Shown here piece after piece: positions 1-34,298 of a stretch of DNA of 64,000 nucleotides. Each line of letters begins with the position of its first letter. Within the stretch, counting starts at the first letter, position 1. The position numbers were made by a program, and so were the translations under genes. The notes below the pieces were generated by a model. That model was given only the letters and a program-made list of their open reading frames with translations, did no database searches and was not told the origin of the DNA. This DNA comes from Phoronis australis (lineage: Eukaryota > Animalia > Phoronida): assembly GCA_002633005.1 (NCBI GenBank), contig NMRA01000609.1, positions 172,977 through 236,976 of the forward strand. Direction: 5' to 3'.

Positions 1-1977
1 ATGACTAGTGACTTCGTTGCTAGGTTGTGGGACATCCTGCGAGGCGGCGTTCCGTGGTCGTTATAAAACTAATGTGATCACGTGCTTCGCTCGTAATGCA
101 GTGGCAATTGTTCTAGAAGATTCGTATGATCTTGCGATTTCGCGAGAAAACAAGTAGAAAGTGTGTAGGATAAGTTTTACATCAGTGCTGCATATTTACT
201 ATGACCTACCTCCAGCGGAGGAATACGCGGAGAGTGAGTTTATAAAAGTGTTGCCGTTACCTGGCGAAGACCAATGTGAAAATATAAGTAAAACGCAATT
301 ATCTTTTAAGTGGGCCAGTCTGCGCTCTTACTGGGAGTCTTCGTTGCTAAGTTTCATCAAGGTTGCATGGCGCCATTTTTATGAACAATCATGATCCAGA
401 ATAGATTGGAGCCGTCTAATCTTTACAAGGAACTTCAATGGACGCTACATTCCTAGTTTCCTCTAATAAGGTATCGCGCATACTCGCGAACACTCGCCTT
501 TCACTTACGTGAGATTGCGTGGCCTTGTGAGATCTTACTTTTTGGCGACAATCTTGGGTCTACCCACCAAATCTTTGGTGCCATTTTGTCCAATTGATTT
601 TAGTGTCATGCGGTCAATAAGATACCGGGTATATTCGAAAAAGACGACGTTCTCAAATTCTCTTTTCTGCTTTCCATTACATGTTCATTAGGCTTACGTG
701 TCTTGAGTAAAACATTCAAACCAATATTTCACATTTCATATATCATATTCACTTTACCTTCCTCTACTATAATTTTATAAATATTATGATTCATAGCGAA
801 ACTACGCTAGTTACATTGACTCCTGCTTGTTTTCATAAAAGCGGTCAGGTGGCGATTTGTGTGGGTTCACAAGAACAAATGATAGTGTATTTCTCCACTG
901 CCGTTATCATACAGCTTAAATATTATTACTCTGACTAAACACACCAAGTCATAGCAAAGGACAATGCGTTGTTATTCTTTAGTGTTTTCTCAGCAATTTC
1001 CAGCGCGCCAGTTGGCTTGTATCAGCGCCCATGAATATTTTTTTTTACCGTTTGTTTTGTTCTGGCCATCACCTCTTTCGCCTCACACAGACAGCAGCAA
1101 AGTTTTGTCAGTAGTTGTAAATCTTCACTAAGCTATCATAAATGAGCGCTGCTTTAGTAATTAATGGCTTCCTTATCAAGCCTAGAGTGGTACTCATTAG
1201 TTATGGCTTGTCTTCCAATGTTCACGATCTATGATTAAATGGACAGTTTTCGCGTGTATAAATAGAACTTTTCAATTGCACTTAAGTGTGTACATTCGGA
1301 TTCCATTATAACTCTCGATTATGCTTGAAACATTCTGGGCGTATTGACGACAACCTGTCCCTTACTACTGGCTACAAAGGGGTAATGTTTATTCTTTGTC
1401 TCGAATATGAACGGCACAGAAGCTCAATGACAGTATTGACTGATAAAGGATATCGGACACCATTACTTTCATTGATAATATAATAATCGATAAGGCACGT
1501 TGACAAAACAGTTGAGCTGAAAACGTCGCTATGTAACCTATTAATTTTAGGGACTTCTTCTGGTGTCAACCTTTGTTCTGGGCGATTTTTGTTGATTTAC
1601 GTTGAACAACTTTGTATTTCAATCGAAGTTCTGTCTACAAGTTATAGCGAAGTGACATGTAGAGTGCGCCTTATATTTCTTCGGCTAATAATGTTTACCA
1701 CTTGTAGCAGCTCCATTACGACCCGTTAAGGGACACCGCTGTTTCATTGCGTTTCCGTCATCTCTTCATGCGTGCTCTGAATTAAAAGGTAAGGGTTAAA
1801 TGCTTGATACACGTTTTATTAATATAAAACTTGTGGGCATACGTGTGTGTGAGTGGGTGTATATAGCCGTGCGCACGTGCGTGTGCACTACTGTGCGCGC
1901 ATATTCGGTAGCAATGGTGCCCGGGTTTCCTTTCCACATAGAAAAGTCAATCAGCAGTGCGATCGCTAGTTATCTTT

Positions 1978-10500: not shown

Positions 10501-12068
10501 AAGATTCAAAACGAAATAATAATGAATCTGTAATCGGGAACTTTAAAACTGAAAAAGGTCAGAGTTTGTATATATCAGATCAAAGCCTTTCCTAAATATT
10601 TCAGTTATTATCAAAATTGTAAAGAAGACACGGAGTTTGACCCTTGGCAAATTCGGAACGCCATATCTCAGAGATAGCTGATCGGATTCACATGAAACCT
10701 TCGCATATTAGGATTTTAAAATGTTCCAGTTCTCAAAAATAAGTCAGACTGTTTTAGAAAATTGTGACTTCAGTTAGTCATGCCTTGCCGATTTAAAGTT
10801 TTTTTTAAGTCAAGTTACCTTCACACTAGGCGCAAACTGTTAATGAGGCTCGCAAAAGCATTATTTCGTTGTCAAGATCTCGGTAATCATGTGGTAGTCC
10901 GTTATTTGTTAGTAATCTAAAATAGGGTCGAGTGTACTTTGAATGCCATTTTCTCGTATAACCCGGGTCAGAGCTGTTGTCAATAGGCCCATTAAGTCAA
11001 ACCCAGTCTCGACTCTTTGCCCCTAGCTGCTAACCTCGCCACCCTTTTCCTGCCATGTATTAGGGACAAATCAAACCTTATCTCAGCAGTGCGGCTATAC
11101 AGTTGTACGCAACTTGTTTCGTTTCGTGTTCTTGTTATCTAGGCTCTCCAACGTAAGAGCTAGCCAGTAAACGCTGATTAGAGATTATCATCGTACTCGA
11201 TAACATGAGCGACGACTGAAAAACTTGGCAAATTGTTTAACCATCATTTGTGATTTTCTCAGTATTTGCAATTGCTTGTTCTGCGCATCAGAGCAGAGGA
11301 AATTAATTTTAGGTAAAAATACTGATACAATAAAAATATTTTCATTAATTCATATTACGTTTGCATGTCGTAAATAGCTCAAATAGTTGGCGAGAGACGA
11401 ACTGGTCAAAACACCGTGTAAACAGAAGACGTTACAATCGTCTTGACACCTGGTGTGCCATTTTAAATCACTCCCAGAGGTTGTGCAGATTGTTCCAGAC
11501 AAAGTTTTTACCGGTTGCACATGCCGTGTAAACGCAGAGGGGATTAACCGAAGGCAGTTCCATTCTATCACGCATTTCTCGATAGGAGTTAACTTGAAAC
11601 TGCCTTTTGTGACTACTGCTTCCGCGCATTCTCGCACTGACACGATTTCCGGTTTGTTCACAAGTTTCAGTTGTACCGTGTAAACACACACGACCTTGAA
11701 ACAGCCTGTACCCATTCCCACTGCCGTGTGAACGCAGCATTCATCAGGACGATTCTGCACACCCACTTTCCGAGGCCTTACTTACGTATAAGCTAACCAA
11801 TAAGTGGATTACACTCCTATTTCTCGAGCAAGTGCATTGTGTATAGAGATTCCATCGATGACAAGAGTGCAGTAATCTATCAGAAGCATTGTGCAGTTTC
11901 TTGAACGATGCTCATATAAATGAATTGGTGTTAAGTGCCTCGTTAAGATACTGTACACTACTCTACTGTTGCGATGCTACGTAGTCAACACGACATTAAA
12001 CTCCGTTGTAGCGGATTGCTGAAATTTGTGTTAACTTTTCTAATCAAGAATTTTCTTTTTCAGTTATT

Positions 12069-12187
12069 ATGCAAAAAAATTTATACTGGCTCACGGCTGC
12101 CCTCGTGATATGGTCAGCGTTAATCCTCACGTCGGATGCCATGTGGTACAGATTCCGAAGACCACGGTGGAGAAAAATAGATTGCAG
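12069..12187 (+). CDS. Elevenin-like precursor coding exon 1 (signal peptide to first Cys)
   Basis: MQKNLYWLTAALVIWSALILTSDAMWYRFRRPRWRKIDC+AG; donor CAG|GTACTG; 119 nt. Confidence 0.88.
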
Positions 12188-15100
12188 GTACTGTGTATGT
12201 CCTTTAACATTTCATAGCACTCTGCTGATGCTGGTTGGCGGTTCGGATGAGCAATATTCTCTTATATTTACTAATTTTTACACTTTTAAAATCTAGATGA
12301 GTTGGTCTTTTTGGTATTATAAATGTAATTGATCGTTGGCCTATTAAAACTGGTTCTGCAAAAAGAAGAAAAAATGTACGTGCCCTCGAGAAACCCCTAT
12401 AACGATCGACCGGTTTCGGGGGGTTTTGAAAAAATCCACTGAAGTTGACAAACATAAAAAACAATCGTTACAGTAGAATTTTAAAAACTGCATAAGTGGC
12501 ACTAAAACGTCATGTTTTTGTGCAGTGAACACATTTTCACCGGTACCACAGTATCCTGTGGCCGTATGACGTTAGAAACGTCATGGCTCCCAACGCTTTT
12601 CGAAAGCGACTAGTAATTCTCGTGTGGCACTTTCCGAGAAAGCGAATTAATACGATCTGGTGGACTCTCTACAGGCAAGTCGAGATCGGTAATTAGTTGA
12701 TCTACCTTAAATAGATATTCTCTCTGCGAAAAAAGACAGTTTCAGATGTTGGTAGTTGCGCGGAATCCAACCCATTAATTCCGCACCGGCATGTGTTAAA
12801 TGGCAGGGTATTTTAAGCTTATTAGACACCGGTTTGGTTTCAGCGAATGTTTGGCAGACACTCGCGAGAATTCGTGATTTGTAATAAAATAACGCAAAAC
12901 ATAACATATTTTGTTTTTACAGCTCACGTACTTGATAATAGCTTTACGAAGTCTACACTATTCAAGGATAATCTCGAAATCCCAAAATTGCGTTTTCTTG
13001 CCCAAAAAAACGTTAATGTGCCTTTAAGTAAAAATTAATTACAAGAATGTGTTAGCACAGTCCTGCCTCGGGTGCACAGTCCTGCCCGAGTACACAGTCC
13101 TGCCCCGGGTACACAGTCCTGCCCCGGGTACACAGTCCTGNACGAAGTCTACACTATTCAAGGATAATCTCGAAATCCCAAAATTGCGTTTTCAAGCCCA
13201 AAAAAAACGTTAATGTGCCTTTAAGTAAAAATTAATTACAAGAATGTGTTAGCACAGTCCTGCCTCGGGTGCACAGTCCTGCCCGAGTACACAGTCCTGT
13301 CCCGGGTACACAGTCCTGCCCCGGGTACACAGTCCTGCCCCGGGTACACAGTTATGCCCCGGGTACACAGTCCTGCCCCGGGTACACATTCCTGCCCCGG
13401 GTACGCAGTCCTGTCCCGGGTACACAGTCCTGCCCCGGGTACACAGTCCTGCCCCTGGTAAACAGTCCTGCCAGGGAACAAACGTTTTCTCTGTTCGTTT
13501 CTACATTTTTGTATCTTTATCTGTTTTTACTCTTTCTTCAAAAGTGTGTTTTTCCACACAACTTGACTCATTCGTCTACCAAATTTGTTTTAGAAACTGA
13601 TAAATAAATCGTAGATGAAAGGTTTGGAAGATTTTTTTCTAATATTTAAAGTATTTTTTTTTGCAGAAAATATCCATTTGCTCCGAGATGTCGAGGCGTG
13701 TGGACCGTAAAAAGAAGTTCTCCTGCCGTCGACAATGTGAACGAATATGTTGATTACCCAAGCATACTAAAGGAAGACTACCCTTTAATAAAAAGATTAA
13801 GAAGGTAAGGTGTTTTCATATAATAACGCTGCCAGAAGGATGGGGGGCGGAGGGGGGTGGGCAAAACTATGCTTTGACAAGGGATGTGAAAACGAACCTG
13901 ACCGAAGTATCCCCGGTGACACCAACTTTGTTTCTGCACCCGGTGGAGTACGATTGACTGACGATGCTCTTTTGCAGACAAAAAGTATGTTAACTAACAC
14001 CTTGGTTTGTTCAGTATTTTGGATTTTTGTTTCATGTTTCGCTCACTGTATGGTTCGCGACTGGAAGTAAGTTTGGTTATTTTTCCAAATACATTTTGAA
14101 ATGAATTCAAATTTAATGGCCACCAATTCCCCTGTCACTCACTCTTTACACATACGGGGACTGAGTCAAGATATATGTGCCATATAGTTCTGTTCACTGA
14201 GTTATGAACAGTAACTTTACGACGCAAGTGCTTGCTTATGGTCAAATCAATAGCACGAGACTTGCTTCGAAAAGGGTCTCTTTTTAACGAGAAATCACTA
14301 CGCAACGCCTCTTTCCACCTAAAACTCAGTTAACGACAGTTACATTTTCAAACAATTAAGCCCAACTATAAGGCCGACTGGGTCGTTGTTGGCGACGTTT
14401 GGGGGAATTTACAATCGGATTCTGTTAGATCAGTGTTCCTACTGCAAACGAAAAACGTATTACGAAAAGAAAAGATAGCTGAACTCGGCAAACCTGGGCC
14501 GAGAACCTCTCGTACCCTTCGCGGCTGTTCTGGTGAATAAGAATCCAAGGTCAAGTGGAATGTTGCCGTATGCGGAGCGCAACAAAGAGGATCGATGGTA
14601 CAATGCAAACTTGTTCCATATTACACTAATTCACGGGGCATGTGCGTGTGAGCGTGTTCGTCCTTGTGTCCGCGTGTGTGCGTGTGTGTGCCTCAGAGTG
14701 CATGTCCCTGTTTGGACATCTGTCGTAAACAAATAGTCCAAAATTTTACCAGAAAATGGTAATGCTGCATTCCTTAGCTCTTTGTTTTTCTTGGGTTATT
14801 TATGGATCACGCACTGAAGACATTAATTAACTTGATGTATTGTCATGGTGAAAAGAGGGATTCCATCTTCCAACCAATCAGAATGATTAAATACGATTTT
14901 TCCCGCGAACCAATGAGAAGACAGAATCAACAAGATTGTCTTTATCTCTGGGTATACACTTTGCTCTCGTAAAACGAGGATTCTGAGGTGGTGCGTGTTA
15001 TATATTACAATGACGTGACGCGTGAATATATGTATACAGTACGGGTACTATTACAAAGGGCGAGCAATGTACAAAAAGTACCGCTCTCAGCTCTGGAAGT

Positions 15101-17455
15101 GGTCCAGAGAGGCAGCTGGACTGAGAGACTAATACAAAAGTCTGTTGTCGTGGGAAGCATGCAGTTTTGTAGATAGGCATGTGCGGCATTATGGGTCACG
15201 AAGTGCATGCTGGGACATCTGTTGGTGGTGGTGCTAATGGCGGGAAAAAGTGGGTGACAGGGATGACGACAGTCTGATTGACAACATCACTACGGCGTTT
15301 TCCCGTTGCTCCCAACTTGTTCGATTCTATAGCCCAACAACATGTTGGGAAGATGACTCCTGTATCCAATATCTTACACGACTGATTAACTCCATTGTGG
15401 CATTTATGGTTGGAAGGCCAGCTCTCTTTTGTTCGATAATTACTCTAATCTCCAATAAGATCGTATCTGACTGGGCTGTATTGTTAAAAATAAAAGTTAA
15501 GTTATAACATATATGAACATAAACCAATAGCATTTCTGAAATCTTCGTCAAATGGTGTTCATGTTTAGTTTTTGAGTCGCCAAAATCGCCCAACTACAAC
15601 CGAAGTTATGACAATCTATTCTTTCAGAACGGAAATATTTATATGTTACTTTCACCAAAAATACACTTTCGGCTTAATTACTGTTATCCCTGACATAATG
15701 TCTTCTGGCGCTTTCTGGGTTTAATTCTTAGTATTGTGCATTGTGTTTTTCGTAATTATAACGATAAAAAAAATGTTTTCCCAGGTCGAGTTTCGTAAAC
15801 ACAAGAACCTCGCGAAGAAAGCTAGTGTGATCATGTGGTTTGCTCGTAATACATGGCGAAAGCCCTTGTAGTCCTGCGTGGTTTTGCGTTTTCGCGAGGT
15901 TCTCGCATCTACGAAACGCACGCCTGGCGTTTTGCAAGCGCTTCCATTGAGCAAAACACGATTGACCGACAAAGAGTGTACGCTGGGACCTCGTTAAAAA
16001 ACAAGACATCGCGAGATTACGTGAGATATTGTCGTGTATTTCAAATGAAAGCACGTGATTTTGGCTTGATTTTAGCTGGGTCCTGATGTAGGTTAGTGAA
16101 CGCTCCCCAGTTCAATAGCGAGTGGGACTTGAGATCACCCCATGGCAATGAATCGGCAGAATCAAGATTCGGGCCCCAAGCTTTTTAGTAGCCGTTTAAT
16201 ACTTTGTCTCTTTCCATTGTTTCATAGTTGCTAAATACTTGCCAGGGAAGCAGCGATGCCTAACAGTCTCCCCTACTGAGGTAACCAGGGATATATATTT
16301 TTGGTAAAGCTGGCATAGTCTATCCTTTAAACTATGACTTAAGCCTATTATCATTAAAATCTTTGAAACAAAGTAGTACTAAGCTCTATTCGTCTACAAT
16401 AAAAATTTTGAGACAATTTTAAAAAGGATGAAGTCTTTTAAACGTGCAAGAGTTACAGGCCCTTAACTGGTACGTGACTTATACCGCCGTCGTTCAGACA
16501 TTGAATTTTTAATGCGTCTCATCAGAAGGTAGATCAGCCGCTTACAGGGCAATTCATTAACCCTCGTGCTTTTTATCAAAGTACAATTTTTTGATTTAGA
16601 CTACTAATCGTTGGGAAATTGACCTCAAATAGCTCCCGAGTCAAAATAGGAGTGATTTCTGGTTTGGAATTGATTGTTTGTCATTTCTTCATGCTAAGCT
16701 CATGAAATTTCAAGTCACCTAGTGACTTGACAGTTCATGAGTTTAGTCTGGAGAAATGACAAACTGTCAGCTGTTCCCGAGCTCGGAGATCAGACAAGAC
16801 CAATTCTGCTATCGAGTTAATGCCCCCTTAAAGTTAGTGCTCACAAAGGCATCCTATTTCCGGTGCAACGTGTAATTACCATAACATCAATGTGTAAAAT
16901 GACGTGCGCCATCATGGGCGAACAGCGCCTAACCACAAATCGCGTCATTCGAATGTAGGCTTTTCACAGTAAGAAGACAGATTAAACGTCAGACGAGCGT
17001 TCACGTTTGAAAATATTTTCACATGGCGGAACAGACATCCATCAGCGTTCTGACTGGACGACCCGCGAACTCTGTATAATAGAAAAATTTATGGAAGGAC
17101 ATAATGTCCACTTGGCAGAATCTACTTTGTAACAAAGTGAGAACGTGAGAAGCTGTTTAATGCCTTTATTTTTGGAAAGGCTGGGCAAGGATACATGTAC
17201 CTAAATGATGACGATATCAGCTTTGAGAAAAATCGCAAACAGGGTTTCTAGCCTATCAGAAGTTTTTCATAAAGTCAGTTCTCTAGAACTGGCGGATTTA
17301 GGGGGGGGGGGGCAAAGGGNAATTCTGGTTATTCCTGTGCCCTGGCACCCCTAACTCAAAATCCTGGATCCGCGCCCCTGTCTATAATTATTTTTTTGTG
17401 AGCGATGTCAGTAAACTCTTGTTTTTTGTATTTCAGCTACAATGCCCGAAGGTAG
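12069..17455 (+). CDS. Elevenin/L11-like neuropeptide precursor, 3 coding exons (12069-12187, 13667-13804, 17437-17455), 91 aa
   Basis: Spliced product MQKNLYWLTAALVIWSALILTSDA-MWYRFRRPRWRK-IDCRKYPFAPRCRGVWTV-KR-SSPAVDNVNEYVDYPSILKEDYPLI-KR-LRSYNARR*. It has a hydrophobic signal peptide, a C-x8-C ring with the elevenin-type DC...FAP.CRGV motif and dibasic cleavage sites. Introns are canonical and phase-matched (both phase 2). An acceptor ttttctttttcag at 12063, just before the ATG, implies an upstream non-coding exon. Confidence 0.85.
13053..13475. repeat. 19-bp minisatellite (GGGTACACAGTCCTGCCCC)n, split by an N with a duplicated flank
   Basis: Arrays at ~13053-13140 and ~13251-13475; the overlapping ORFs show 19-aa periodicity. 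Confidence 0.92.
13667..13804 (+). CDS. Elevenin-like precursor coding exon 2
   Basis: Acceptor ttttttttgcag; (R)KYPFAPRCRGVWTVKRSSPAVDNVNEYVDYPSILKEDYPLIKRLR; donor AAG|GTAAGG; 138 nt; phase matches exon 1. Confidence 0.88.
15781..15905 (+). repeat. Dispersed repeat family A (copies ~72-146, ~2715-2790, ~15781-15905, ~18010-18135)
   Basis: Shared core tgatcacgtgct(t)cgctcgtaat...tgatcttgcgttttcgcga. Confidence 0.7.
17437..17455 (+). CDS. Elevenin-like precursor probable terminal coding exon
   Basis: Strong acceptor cttgttttttgtatttcag; phase-compatible (S)YNARR then TAG. The coding part is short, so it is less certain. Confidence 0.6.
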
Positions 17456-18577
17456 TAGAAAGGCGAAGGAACGTTTCCAGTTACATTCCGTACGCACAGT
17501 CAACATTTCTAAGGATTTTGTGAAAATCGAGAAAATGGGTATTCGAACACAGTATTAGAGCAACACGCCTGTGTCAACTCTACATTGCAATAACTAACGC
17601 ACGTGGGGTAGCACAGCGTGCACTAGATTTGACTAACGGAAATACTGTCTAGTGTGTTACTTACTGATCAGCTGAAAAAACTGTGTGATGGTATGGCAAT
17701 GTACAACGGCACCTCAGCACGGCCCGACATTAAAAGCAAGAACGCCCCGCGCACTCGGCGTTGGCCCGCCATGAGCTTTGGATATTTACTTGGGAATTTA
17801 ACAGCGCAAGACTACTGTACCTGAGTGGTTAAAGGACTGGATAATTGTAAATATGAAGAATTTAAAGGTGCTGTAATCACCTACGTTATGGAAAATGTGA
17901 TGTGCAAACATATTTTTATATGGGTTTGACACGCATTTCAGGAAATGTAACAAGCATGCTATAAAATAAATTACTTTGTGAGCCAATTATCATTTAATAA
18001 CCTTATAACCTCCTGACCCGAGTTCCTTAGATGCAGTAATCTCGCAAAGGAAGCTTCTGCGGTCACGTGCTTTGCTTGTAATGCGTGGCAACATCTCGCG
18101 AAGTTTTGCGTGATCTTGCGTTTTCGCGATGTTTCCCCGCCTTCAGAACGCACACATGCTATCCCTGAACAGGTACTTTGTTTGATACTACGCCATCGCG
18201 TTCCTGTCCTTTGTGACAATAAATCAATTCCTGGACGGGCATACTGCCTTGGCGTCAGAAAATAACTGGCTACAGGGACGTGGCTAGCTGTACCATAGAA
18301 GCAAATACGCACGTGCGTCATAGACAGAAGGCAATAAACTTTAGTGTTCACTGCAAATTAATTTTCCAAAAATTTTCACCATTTTTATTCAAACTATATC
18401 AATATCAATGCGCACCAGGGACATATGGACATCGATCACGACTAGTAAGAATATATCACGTCTACAGAACGGCGTGACGTCATAAACCCGCGTTCCGTCG
18501 GAGAAACTAAATGTTCATTTACCGCAACTTGTGGATCCTGGTATCGATCAATCTGAACTGGAAAAACTTGAATTCAA

Positions 18578-25473: not shown

Positions 25474-25701
25474 NNNNNNNNNNNNNNNNNNNNNNNNNNN
25501 NNNNNNNNNNNNNNNNNNNNNNNNNNNNNNNNNNNNNNNNNNNNNNNNNNNNNNNNNNNNNNNNNNNNNNNNNNNNNNNNNNNNNNNNNNNNNNNNNNNN
25601 NNNNNNNNNNNNNNNNNNNNNNNNNNNNNNNNNNNNNNNNNNNNNNNNNNNNNNNNNNNNNNNNNNNNNNNNNNNNNNNNNNNNNNNNNNNNNNNNNNNN
25701 N
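25474..25701. other. Assembly gap (228 N)
   Basis: Run of N. Confidence 0.99.
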
Positions 25702-26680
25702 ATCAGACATCACCATTGTTGTGGACTAGCTGTAAAACACTAGAGCAGCCACTCAAATATGAAATTCCAGAGTTCGACACCCAATTTACAGGAAAAGAAA
25801 ACAAGGCCTCAATGAACTCAAATTTTACCCTTTTGGTGACTCATAAACTCTACTGAACACTACGATTACCGGTCAAAAATGACCACCTTCAAAGTAACAT
25901 CAAATAAGAATGGGGTGGTTTAAGACAACAACAATGCCTTAGAGCCTTATTCTGACCACACGACAAACAAAAAGTGTTAACTTGCCTGGTTCATGACTCA
26001 ATTTTTTGCGAGAGTCAAATTGTGTGATCGTCATTGCTTGAAACGGAACATCCCAAGCACTTGTCAGTACTGTCAATCAGCGCTCAAGGTGACTTTAATA
26101 TACAGCAGCAAGGGAAAGACTTCCCATTTCAAACAAAAAATCCACTTTTTGACACAACAAGGAAGTGTTTTTGCTCAATGTTTTCTTCTCTCATGAGGAA
26201 GATACCAGTCGCACGGTAGCAGGTGGCTAGACTAGCTTTAGGAAAATAAACGTTAAGAGTTTAATATCCTTCGAAGTCCAAGTACTTTCACTTGCTGCAG
26301 CCGTACCTATAGACATTTGATGTGAATATCCTGCAAAGCACCCACGTCACTTTTCGGAAACGTGGAAGTACTTTCAAAAACATGCCCATTATCTTCCATG
26401 TACACGGTCTTGTTTGGTAACACAGATAATAGAATACAAAATAACTTACGCAGTTGTCATTGATAACTTTTCGCCACTTCTCATTTGGTGTCTCAATAAC
26501 ATTCAACAGATTTTAAGCAAAATGTGGGGCAACTCGGAAATCGTATTTGTAGTCAAAAAACTGTAAGGGCAACTTTAAATTCATGTCCGAGAAATCACTC
26601 TAGGGTACTTCCACAGGATGGTACTTGATCAGAAAACCACAAAAGGTCCAGAATTTCTCATAACTAGAAAGCAAACTTAC

Positions 26681-34298
<7,618 letters not shown>

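What the first reader, a model, noticed from the sequence alone, without database searches (positions are those of the whole stretch)
12064..17455. Hidden elevenin/L11-type neuropeptide precursor gene with an atypical C-terminus
Seen: three phase-matched exons give signal peptide + RK-IDCRKYPFAPRCRGVWTV-KR. The peptide is split across an intron, so no single ORF shows it. Known: elevenin/L11 peptides (Aplysia L11, insect elevenins, nematode SNET-1) have a C-x8-C ring with a consensus like DC..F.FAP.CRGV.A followed by KR, and are mainly characterised in protostomes. Inference: this is an elevenin-family ligand with a divergent GVWTV tail instead of GVAA/GVSA. If the host is a deuterostome such as a hemichordate or echinoderm, which I cannot establish here, it would be a candidate ligand for an uncharacterised elevenin-type signalling system in that lineage.
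Basis: partly seen in the sequence, partly recalled or inferred. Interest (0 to 1): 0.85.

Follow-up and report, generated by a model that had tools for sequence, protein, structure and literature searches.

The report
Known horseshoe-worm elevenin neuropeptide gene
This is a real, spliced and expressed gene for the nerve-signalling peptide elevenin, whose protein matches one already published for the horseshoe worm Phoronis australis (a protostome, and so most likely the host), which makes it an ordinary, already known gene rather than the missing deuterostome elevenin.

Summary
The gene is real. Three coding exons (12069-12187, 13667-13804, 17437-17455), joined by two phase-2 GT..AG introns, give a 91-residue precursor with a C-x8-C ring split by the first coding intron and followed by KR. 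RNA reads support both junctions. It is not new. The translation is the same, residue for residue (compared by eye), as 'L11_Phoronida_Phoronis_australis' in the supplement of PMC8557429, which also lists two elevenin receptors for that species. The neighbouring NCAPD3 gene groups with protostomes (UFBoot 97), so the deuterostome idea fails. The 'atypical' tail is only partly atypical: 7 of 19 nemertean, brachiopod and phoronid species have the Trp. Only the one extra residue is rare (2 of 19, both Phoronis). All nine residues called conserved in Aplysia elevenin are kept. Three exons with two phase-2 introns is also reported for a cone-snail elevenin gene. Small additions here: two alternative non-coding 5' leaders, and an uncertain N-terminal cut. 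Verdict: already known, low interest.

The parts
1762..1788 (+). 3' end of non-coding 5' exon A (its start is not determined); splices to 12064 across a 10,275-nt GT..AG intron
   Evidence: 3 reads of run X4 carry this stretch as loose end before 12062; located in the window by motif; intron ends GTAAGG..TTTCAG
12064..12187 (+). first coding exon: 5 nt of UTR, ATG at 12069, signal peptide, basic N-terminal stretch and Ile-Asp-Cys39; ends in phase 2
   Evidence: RNA piece 12063-12187 in X1 and read depth in X2-X4
12069..12140 (+). predicted signal peptide, residues 1-24
   Evidence: hydrophobic core (9-residue Kyte-Doolittle about 2 for windows starting at residues 7-13); small residues at -3/-1 fit a cut after 22 or 24. 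SignalP was not available.
12188..13666 (+). coding intron 1 (phase 2), which splits the Arg40 codon inside the disulfide ring; holds a 19-bp tandem array and a 197-bp duplication
   Evidence: junction read in X4
13667..13804 (+). second coding exon: rest of the ring, Cys48, six-residue tail (last residue Val54 at 13707-13709), KR site 13710-13715, C-terminal spacer; ends in phase 2
   Evidence: RNA depth and contig piece 13711-13802
13805..17436 (+). coding intron 2 (phase 2, GT..AG, 3632 nt); contains dispersed repeats
   Evidence: joint seen in 4 of 4 runs
17437..17940 (+). last exon: last 5-6 codons, stop at 17453-17455, and 3' UTR to at least 17940 (candidate AATAAA at 17965; 3' end not determined)
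   Evidence: X1 contig piece 17435-17940 and read depth

Best explanation
This is the expressed, spliced L11/elevenin precursor gene of a phoronid, most likely Phoronis australis, predicted to be secreted and cut at KR to release one disulfide-ringed peptide that likely activates the worm's elevenin-type GPCRs. Shown here: exons, both coding junctions, + strand expression, an intact 91-aa frame and identity to the published precursor. Inferred from the family: signal-peptide removal after about Ala24; Cys39-Cys48 disulfide; convertase cut at Lys55-Arg56 with the basic residues trimmed, leaving a free, non-amidated C-terminal Val (no Gly before KR); release from neurons or neuroendocrine cells; and Gq/IP3-Ca2+ signalling through one or both of the two L11-clade receptors listed for this species. 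The mature N-terminus is open: 18 residues if cut after Arg35-Lys36, up to about 30 if only the signal peptide is removed. The physiological role in phoronids is untested; neuromodulation or neurohormonal control is the likely class of action.
For: Gene model and frame. RNA junctions. Identical 91-aa sequence under the heading L11/elevenin in the supplement of PMC8557429 (compared by eye). Two L11/elevenin receptors counted for P. australis in the same supplement. NCAPD3 search: the 15 best of 49 hits are all named lophotrochozoans, and the best echinoderm hit ranks 24th. Tree on 647 columns and 24 rows: window inside protostomes (UFBoot 97) and lophotrochozoans (80). All nine residues called conserved in Aplysia elevenin (I4, D5, C6, F11, P13, C15, R16, G17, V18) have the same residue at the matching place, and the ring is required for activation of three Aplysia receptors in an IP1/Gq assay (PMC10175484 section 7). 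Three exons with two phase-2 introns are reported for the Lautoconus ventricosus elevenin gene (PMC9963005 passage).
Against: I found no peptide-level or receptor-activation data for a phoronid; the mass spectrometry in PMC8557429 was on the nemertean Lineus. The exon 1-2 junction rests on 3 reads in 1 of 4 runs, plus the published transcript-derived protein. No phoronid or hemichordate NCAPD3 was among the 49 hits, so the tree alone cannot name the phylum, and nodes inside Lophotrochozoa have support of only 58-77. P. ijimai has the same ring and tail, so the species call rests on the flanking residues, where P. ijimai differs. Pfam gave no family for exon 2 alone and only one sub-cutoff unrelated match for exon 1, and the protein search with exon 2 alone found nothing.
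Confidence: 0.96

Rival explanations
1. The host is a deuterostome (hemichordate, echinoderm or amphioxus) and this is the missing ligand for the orphan elevenin-like receptors there.
For: The gap is real: PMC10175484 says elevenin-like receptors are predicted in Saccoglossus and Branchiostoma with no precursor predicted. No hemichordate NCAPD3 was in my tree.
Against: The precursor matches the P. australis one over all 91 residues. NCAPD3 identity is 58.6% to Owenia, 55.2% to Lamellibrachia and 53.8% to Lineus, against 47.4-48.7% to three echinoderms and 45.6% to Branchiostoma, and the protostome node has UFBoot 97.
Confidence: 0.005
2. It is elevenin, but the Phoronis form (six-residue tail, long basic and aromatic N-terminal stretch) is a functionally distinct variant, for example selective for one of the two receptors or released as a long cationic form with a second role.
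For: The six-residue tail occurs in only 2 of 19 species listed, both Phoronis, and all three Phoronis species have a longer basic stretch before the ring than the brachiopod and nemertean precursors shown. In Aplysia, trimming both ends (fragment 5-17) lowered potency at all three receptors.
Against: The changed positions are not among the residues called conserved or scanned in Aplysia. Tail variety is wide in these phyla (Trp in 7 of 19, Tyr in 1, Phe-Ala-Val in 2), and elevenin length already varies from 19 to 27 residues. No functional data.
Confidence: 0.12
3. A chance joining of unrelated short reading frames, or a silent pseudogene.
For: Exons are short; single-exon searches found no family or homologue.
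Against: Spliced, strand-specific RNA; intact frame; strict motif in 0 of 100 shuffles; a close orthologue in P. ijimai with the same ring and tail.
Confidence: 0.005

Closest known systems
Phoronis australis L11/elevenin precursor (PMC8557429, supplementary precursor list, transcript TRINITY_DN286489_c0_g3_i3)
   Same: All 91 residues, compared by eye
   Different: None in the protein. The genomic exon layout and two non-coding 5' leaders were worked out here; I did not see them in the passages and supplement parts I read.
Phoronis ijimai L11 precursor (same supplement)
   Same: Same length, ring, six-residue tail and KR site
   Different: Substitutions in the signal peptide, the N-terminal basic stretch and the C-terminal spacer
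Aplysia californica elevenin (L11) and receptors apElevR1-3 (PMC10175484)
   Same: One peptide copy soon after the signal peptide, C-x8-C ring, all nine conserved residues, no amidation Gly
   Different: Tail has six residues with Trp rather than five; longer basic N-terminal stretch; precursor is 91 rather than 151 aa; receptor activation is shown for Aplysia, not for Phoronis
Hoplonemertean (Malacobdella, Nipponemertes, Paranemertes) and Glottidia elevenins
   Same: Trp at the same tail position
   Different: Five-residue tail ending in Ala; ring follows the signal peptide almost directly
Cone-snail (Lautoconus ventricosus) elevenin gene (PMC9963005 passage)
   Same: [quoted passage not shown]
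   Different: Exact intron positions could not be compared from the passage read

Membership tests
L11/elevenin neuropeptide precursors | Two Cys with 8 residues between them | tested here: met
   Cys39 and Cys48, the only two Cys in the precursor; definition from PMC10175484
L11/elevenin neuropeptide precursors | Conserved I/V-D before the ring, F-x-P in the ring, R-G-V after it | tested here: met
   9 of 9 residues called conserved in Aplysia elevenin are matched
L11/elevenin neuropeptide precursors | N-terminal signal peptide, single peptide copy close behind it | tested here: met
   Hydropathy and -3/-1 rule only; SignalP not available
L11/elevenin neuropeptide precursors | Dibasic KR site after a short, non-amidated tail | tested here: met
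   KR at 55-56 with no Gly before it; the tail is six residues, against five in 17 of 19 species listed
L11/elevenin neuropeptide precursors | Filed as L11/elevenin in a curated orthology analysis | tested here: met
   Same sequence under 'L11/elevenin' in PMC8557429 supplement
L11/elevenin neuropeptide precursors | Three coding exons with two phase-2 introns (reported for one gastropod; not an established family rule) | tested here: met
   against the passage
L11/elevenin neuropeptide precursors | Mature cyclic peptide is made in vivo and activates an elevenin-clade GPCR | not testable with these tools
   Two such receptors are listed for P. australis; no genome was held to search; no assay possible
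Deuterostome elevenin-type ligand (hypothetical) | Host is a deuterostome | tested here: not met

The most novel reading that the evidence does not exclude
Phoronis elevenin is a lineage-specific variant: its one-residue-longer, Trp-bearing tail and long basic N-terminal stretch change which of the two phoronid elevenin receptors it activates, or give a second long form, and two alternative 5' leaders drive it in different cells or life stages.
Probability: 0.12. Interest if true: 0.25.

Novelty: already known. Interest (0 to 1): 0.06.

Why it matters
As found, it matters little. The precursor and its candidate receptors in this species were listed in 2021, in a lineage where elevenin is expected. 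The modest gains are a read-supported gene structure that matches the phase-2/phase-2 layout of a gastropod elevenin gene, which could guide searches for split elevenin genes in deuterostome genomes, and two alternative 5' leaders.

Tried and rejected
No whole genome is held for this window, so I could not search for the receptor or for the second 5' exon beyond the window. Pfam scan of the two main exons singly: no elevenin family; exon 1 had one sub-cutoff match to DUF4034 (E 0.08), set aside. Protein search with exon 2 alone against proteins of 80-2000 aa: no candidate, which is weak evidence because the conserved motif is short and split. Run index: no listed holder on record as RNA; the lays, not the index, gave the evidence. 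Earlier scan notes: nothing. The second 5' leader seen in reads was not found in the window with up to 3 mismatches. Spliced-leader trans-splicing was considered for it and judged unlikely because it is at least 115 nt in X1, longer than the leaders I recall; not tested. Alternative third exons were listed (15 candidate acceptors); the reads show 17437. High read depth at 15280-16180 and 17230-17380 is on both strands with many mismatches and unlike flanks, so it is repeat cross-mapping, not exons. Structure prediction and complex prediction were not run: they would not change the verdict. For the tree I used 23 of the 49 NCAPD3 hits, chosen to span named phyla; unnamed hits and near-duplicate taxa were left out.

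Full report
Observation. An acceptor ends at 12063 and the ATG lies at 12069. Coding exon 1 ends at 12187, exon 2 spans 13667-13804, exon 3 begins at 17437 and the stop is at 17453-17455. Both introns are GT..AG in phase 2. The joined frame is 276 nt, 91 residues and a stop, with Cys at 39 and 48 only and dibasic sites at 30 (RR before Pro), 35 (RK), 40 (RK, inside the ring), 55 (KR), 82 (KR) and 90 (RR). The first intron splits the codon of Arg40, so no single reading frame shows the ring. Residues 7-21 are hydrophobic and the -3/-1 rule allows a cut after 22 or 24 (SignalP was not available). The strict exon-2 half-motif was found in 0 of 100 shuffles, a loose version in 5 of 100.

Expression. 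Four public runs were listed and all four were laid. On 13480-17960 the joint 13804/17437 appears in 4 of 4 runs (one contig; 5, 4 and 5 reads). Depth covers exon 2 and 17437 to about 17940, and in the three raw-read runs the exon reads have first mates only on the minus strand, as expected for a + strand RNA in the usual stranded library. On 11850-12350, depth stops at the end of exon 1 in 4 of 4 runs. A loose end behind 12187 is listed in 1 of 4 runs (X4, 3 reads), and its 30 letters are window 13667-13696. Depth is low (about 2-10 reads in the 18-19% of each raw run that was read). Two non-coding 5' leaders splice to 12064. One (3 reads, X4) maps to an exon ending at 1788, across a 10,275-nt GT..AG intron. 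The other (X1 contig, 4 reads in X3, 4 in X4; at least 115 nt) is not in the window with up to 3 mismatches and probably lies upstream of it. X2 and X4 also have a few reads running unspliced into 11850-12060.

Host. No genome is held. The window also carries POLR2H (Pfam RNA_pol_Rpb8) and NCAPD3 on the minus strand. One NCAPD3 exon gave 49 hits among 278 candidates. The 15 best are all named lophotrochozoans (Lingula, Owenia, oysters, Lamellibrachia, Lineus and others), and the first echinoderm ranks 24th. A tree from 17 exon pieces (647 columns; 23 of the 49 hits, chosen to span named phyla) puts the window inside protostomes (UFBoot 97) and lophotrochozoans (80), among non-molluscan lophotrochozoans with weak support (58-77). 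No phoronid or hemichordate was in that set, so the tree excludes echinoderms and chordates but does not name the phylum.

Known status. The supplement of PMC8557429 lists, under 'L11/elevenin', a Phoronis australis precursor that is the same as the window's translation at all 91 positions (compared by eye with the exon translations). The P. ijimai precursor has the same ring and tail but differs in the flanks, so P. australis is the likely host. The paper's text reports L11 precursors and L11 receptors in nemerteans, brachiopods and phoronids (passages). Its species table gives L11 precursors in 19 of 23 species and two L11/elevenin receptors for P. australis. A search for 'elevenin' with 'Phoronis' returned 4 papers, two being that work and its preprint; by listing, none is a functional study of phoronid elevenin.

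How atypical is the tail? Among the 19 species (22 sequences), Trp at the same tail position occurs in 7: three Phoronis species, Glottidia, Malacobdella, Nipponemertes and Paranemertes. Lingula has Tyr there. So the Trp is common in these phyla. A six-residue tail between the second Cys and KR occurs in 2 of 19, both Phoronis; the other 17 have five. In Aplysia the residues called conserved are I4, D5, C6, F11, P13, C15, R16, G17 and V18. The ring is required, and G17, R16 and P13 matter most (PMC10175484 section 7). All nine are matched here (I37, D38, C39, F44, P46, C48, R49, G50, V51). The differing positions were not scanned in that work, though a fragment trimmed at both ends lost potency, so an effect of the tail is not excluded. 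The elevenin gene of the cone snail Lautoconus ventricosus is described as three exons with two phase-2 introns (PMC9963005 passage), the same layout as here.

Mechanism. Shown: transcription, splicing and an intact precursor. Inferred from the family: entry to the secretory route, a Cys39-Cys48 disulfide, a convertase cut at KR 55-56 with trimming to a free C-terminal Val, and activation of a rhodopsin-beta GPCR of the elevenin clade coupling to Gq, as in Aplysia and Platynereis. That clade lies near the CCHamide and endothelin receptors (PMC5818035 passage). The N-terminal cut is open. RK at 35-36 would give 18 residues, but RK also sits in the ring, the predicted Aplysia peptide keeps basic residues ahead of the ring, and Pro after RR at 30-31 would hinder cleavage there (my own knowledge of convertases). 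A form of up to about 30 residues is therefore possible. The mass spectrometry in PMC8557429 was on Lineus only, and I did not check whether it detected L11.

Verdict. The deuterostome reading, which carried the interest, is refuted. The gap it addressed is stated in PMC10175484 (elevenin-like receptors in Saccoglossus and Branchiostoma, no precursor), but this locus does not fill it. Already known; interest 0.06.

What I saw of each paper. PMC8557429: passages and supplement searches plus parts 15 and 62 of 387; its gene-structure supplement was not read, so I cannot say the exon layout is absent from print (searches). PMC10175484: abstract and sections 3, 5 and 7, plus passages. PMC5818035, PMC12002301 and PMC9963005: passages only. 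Other papers: search listings only. Supplements of bioRxiv preprints were not consulted.

Noticed in passing
window 12946-13337, single N at 13141: A 197-bp stretch is present twice head to tail (97% match) with a lone N at the join, inside a 19-bp tandem array. This looks like an unmerged contig overlap in the assembly, so the first coding intron may really be about 197 bp shorter.
   Followed up: partly
window 12063 (5' side), runs X1, X3, X4: A second 5' leader of at least 115 nt splices to 12064 and is not in the window; the X1 version differs from the X3/X4 version at 3 of 30 letters shown. Likely an alternative first exon upstream of position 1.
   Followed up: partly
   Followed up: yes
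window about 41700-64000, minus strand: NCAPD3 (condensin-2 subunit D3), 18 tblastn pieces to the Owenia protein at E<0.01; its 5' part runs off the window end.
   Followed up: yes
window 26677-26925, minus strand: An exon of POLR2H (RNA polymerase Rpb8, Pfam E 2.6e-13); the other exons were not mapped.
   Followed up: partly
window 15280-15630, 15880-16180, 17320-17375: Dispersed repeats in intron 2 with high read depth on both strands and many mismatches, from copies in other transcripts; not classified.
   Followed up: no
window 11850-12060: A few plus-strand-type reads in X2 and X4 run unspliced into the end of the 5' intron: pre-mRNA, intron retention or a third, proximal start.
   Followed up: no
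window 25474-25701: Assembly gap of 228 N; single Ns also at 17320 and 56425.
   Followed up: no
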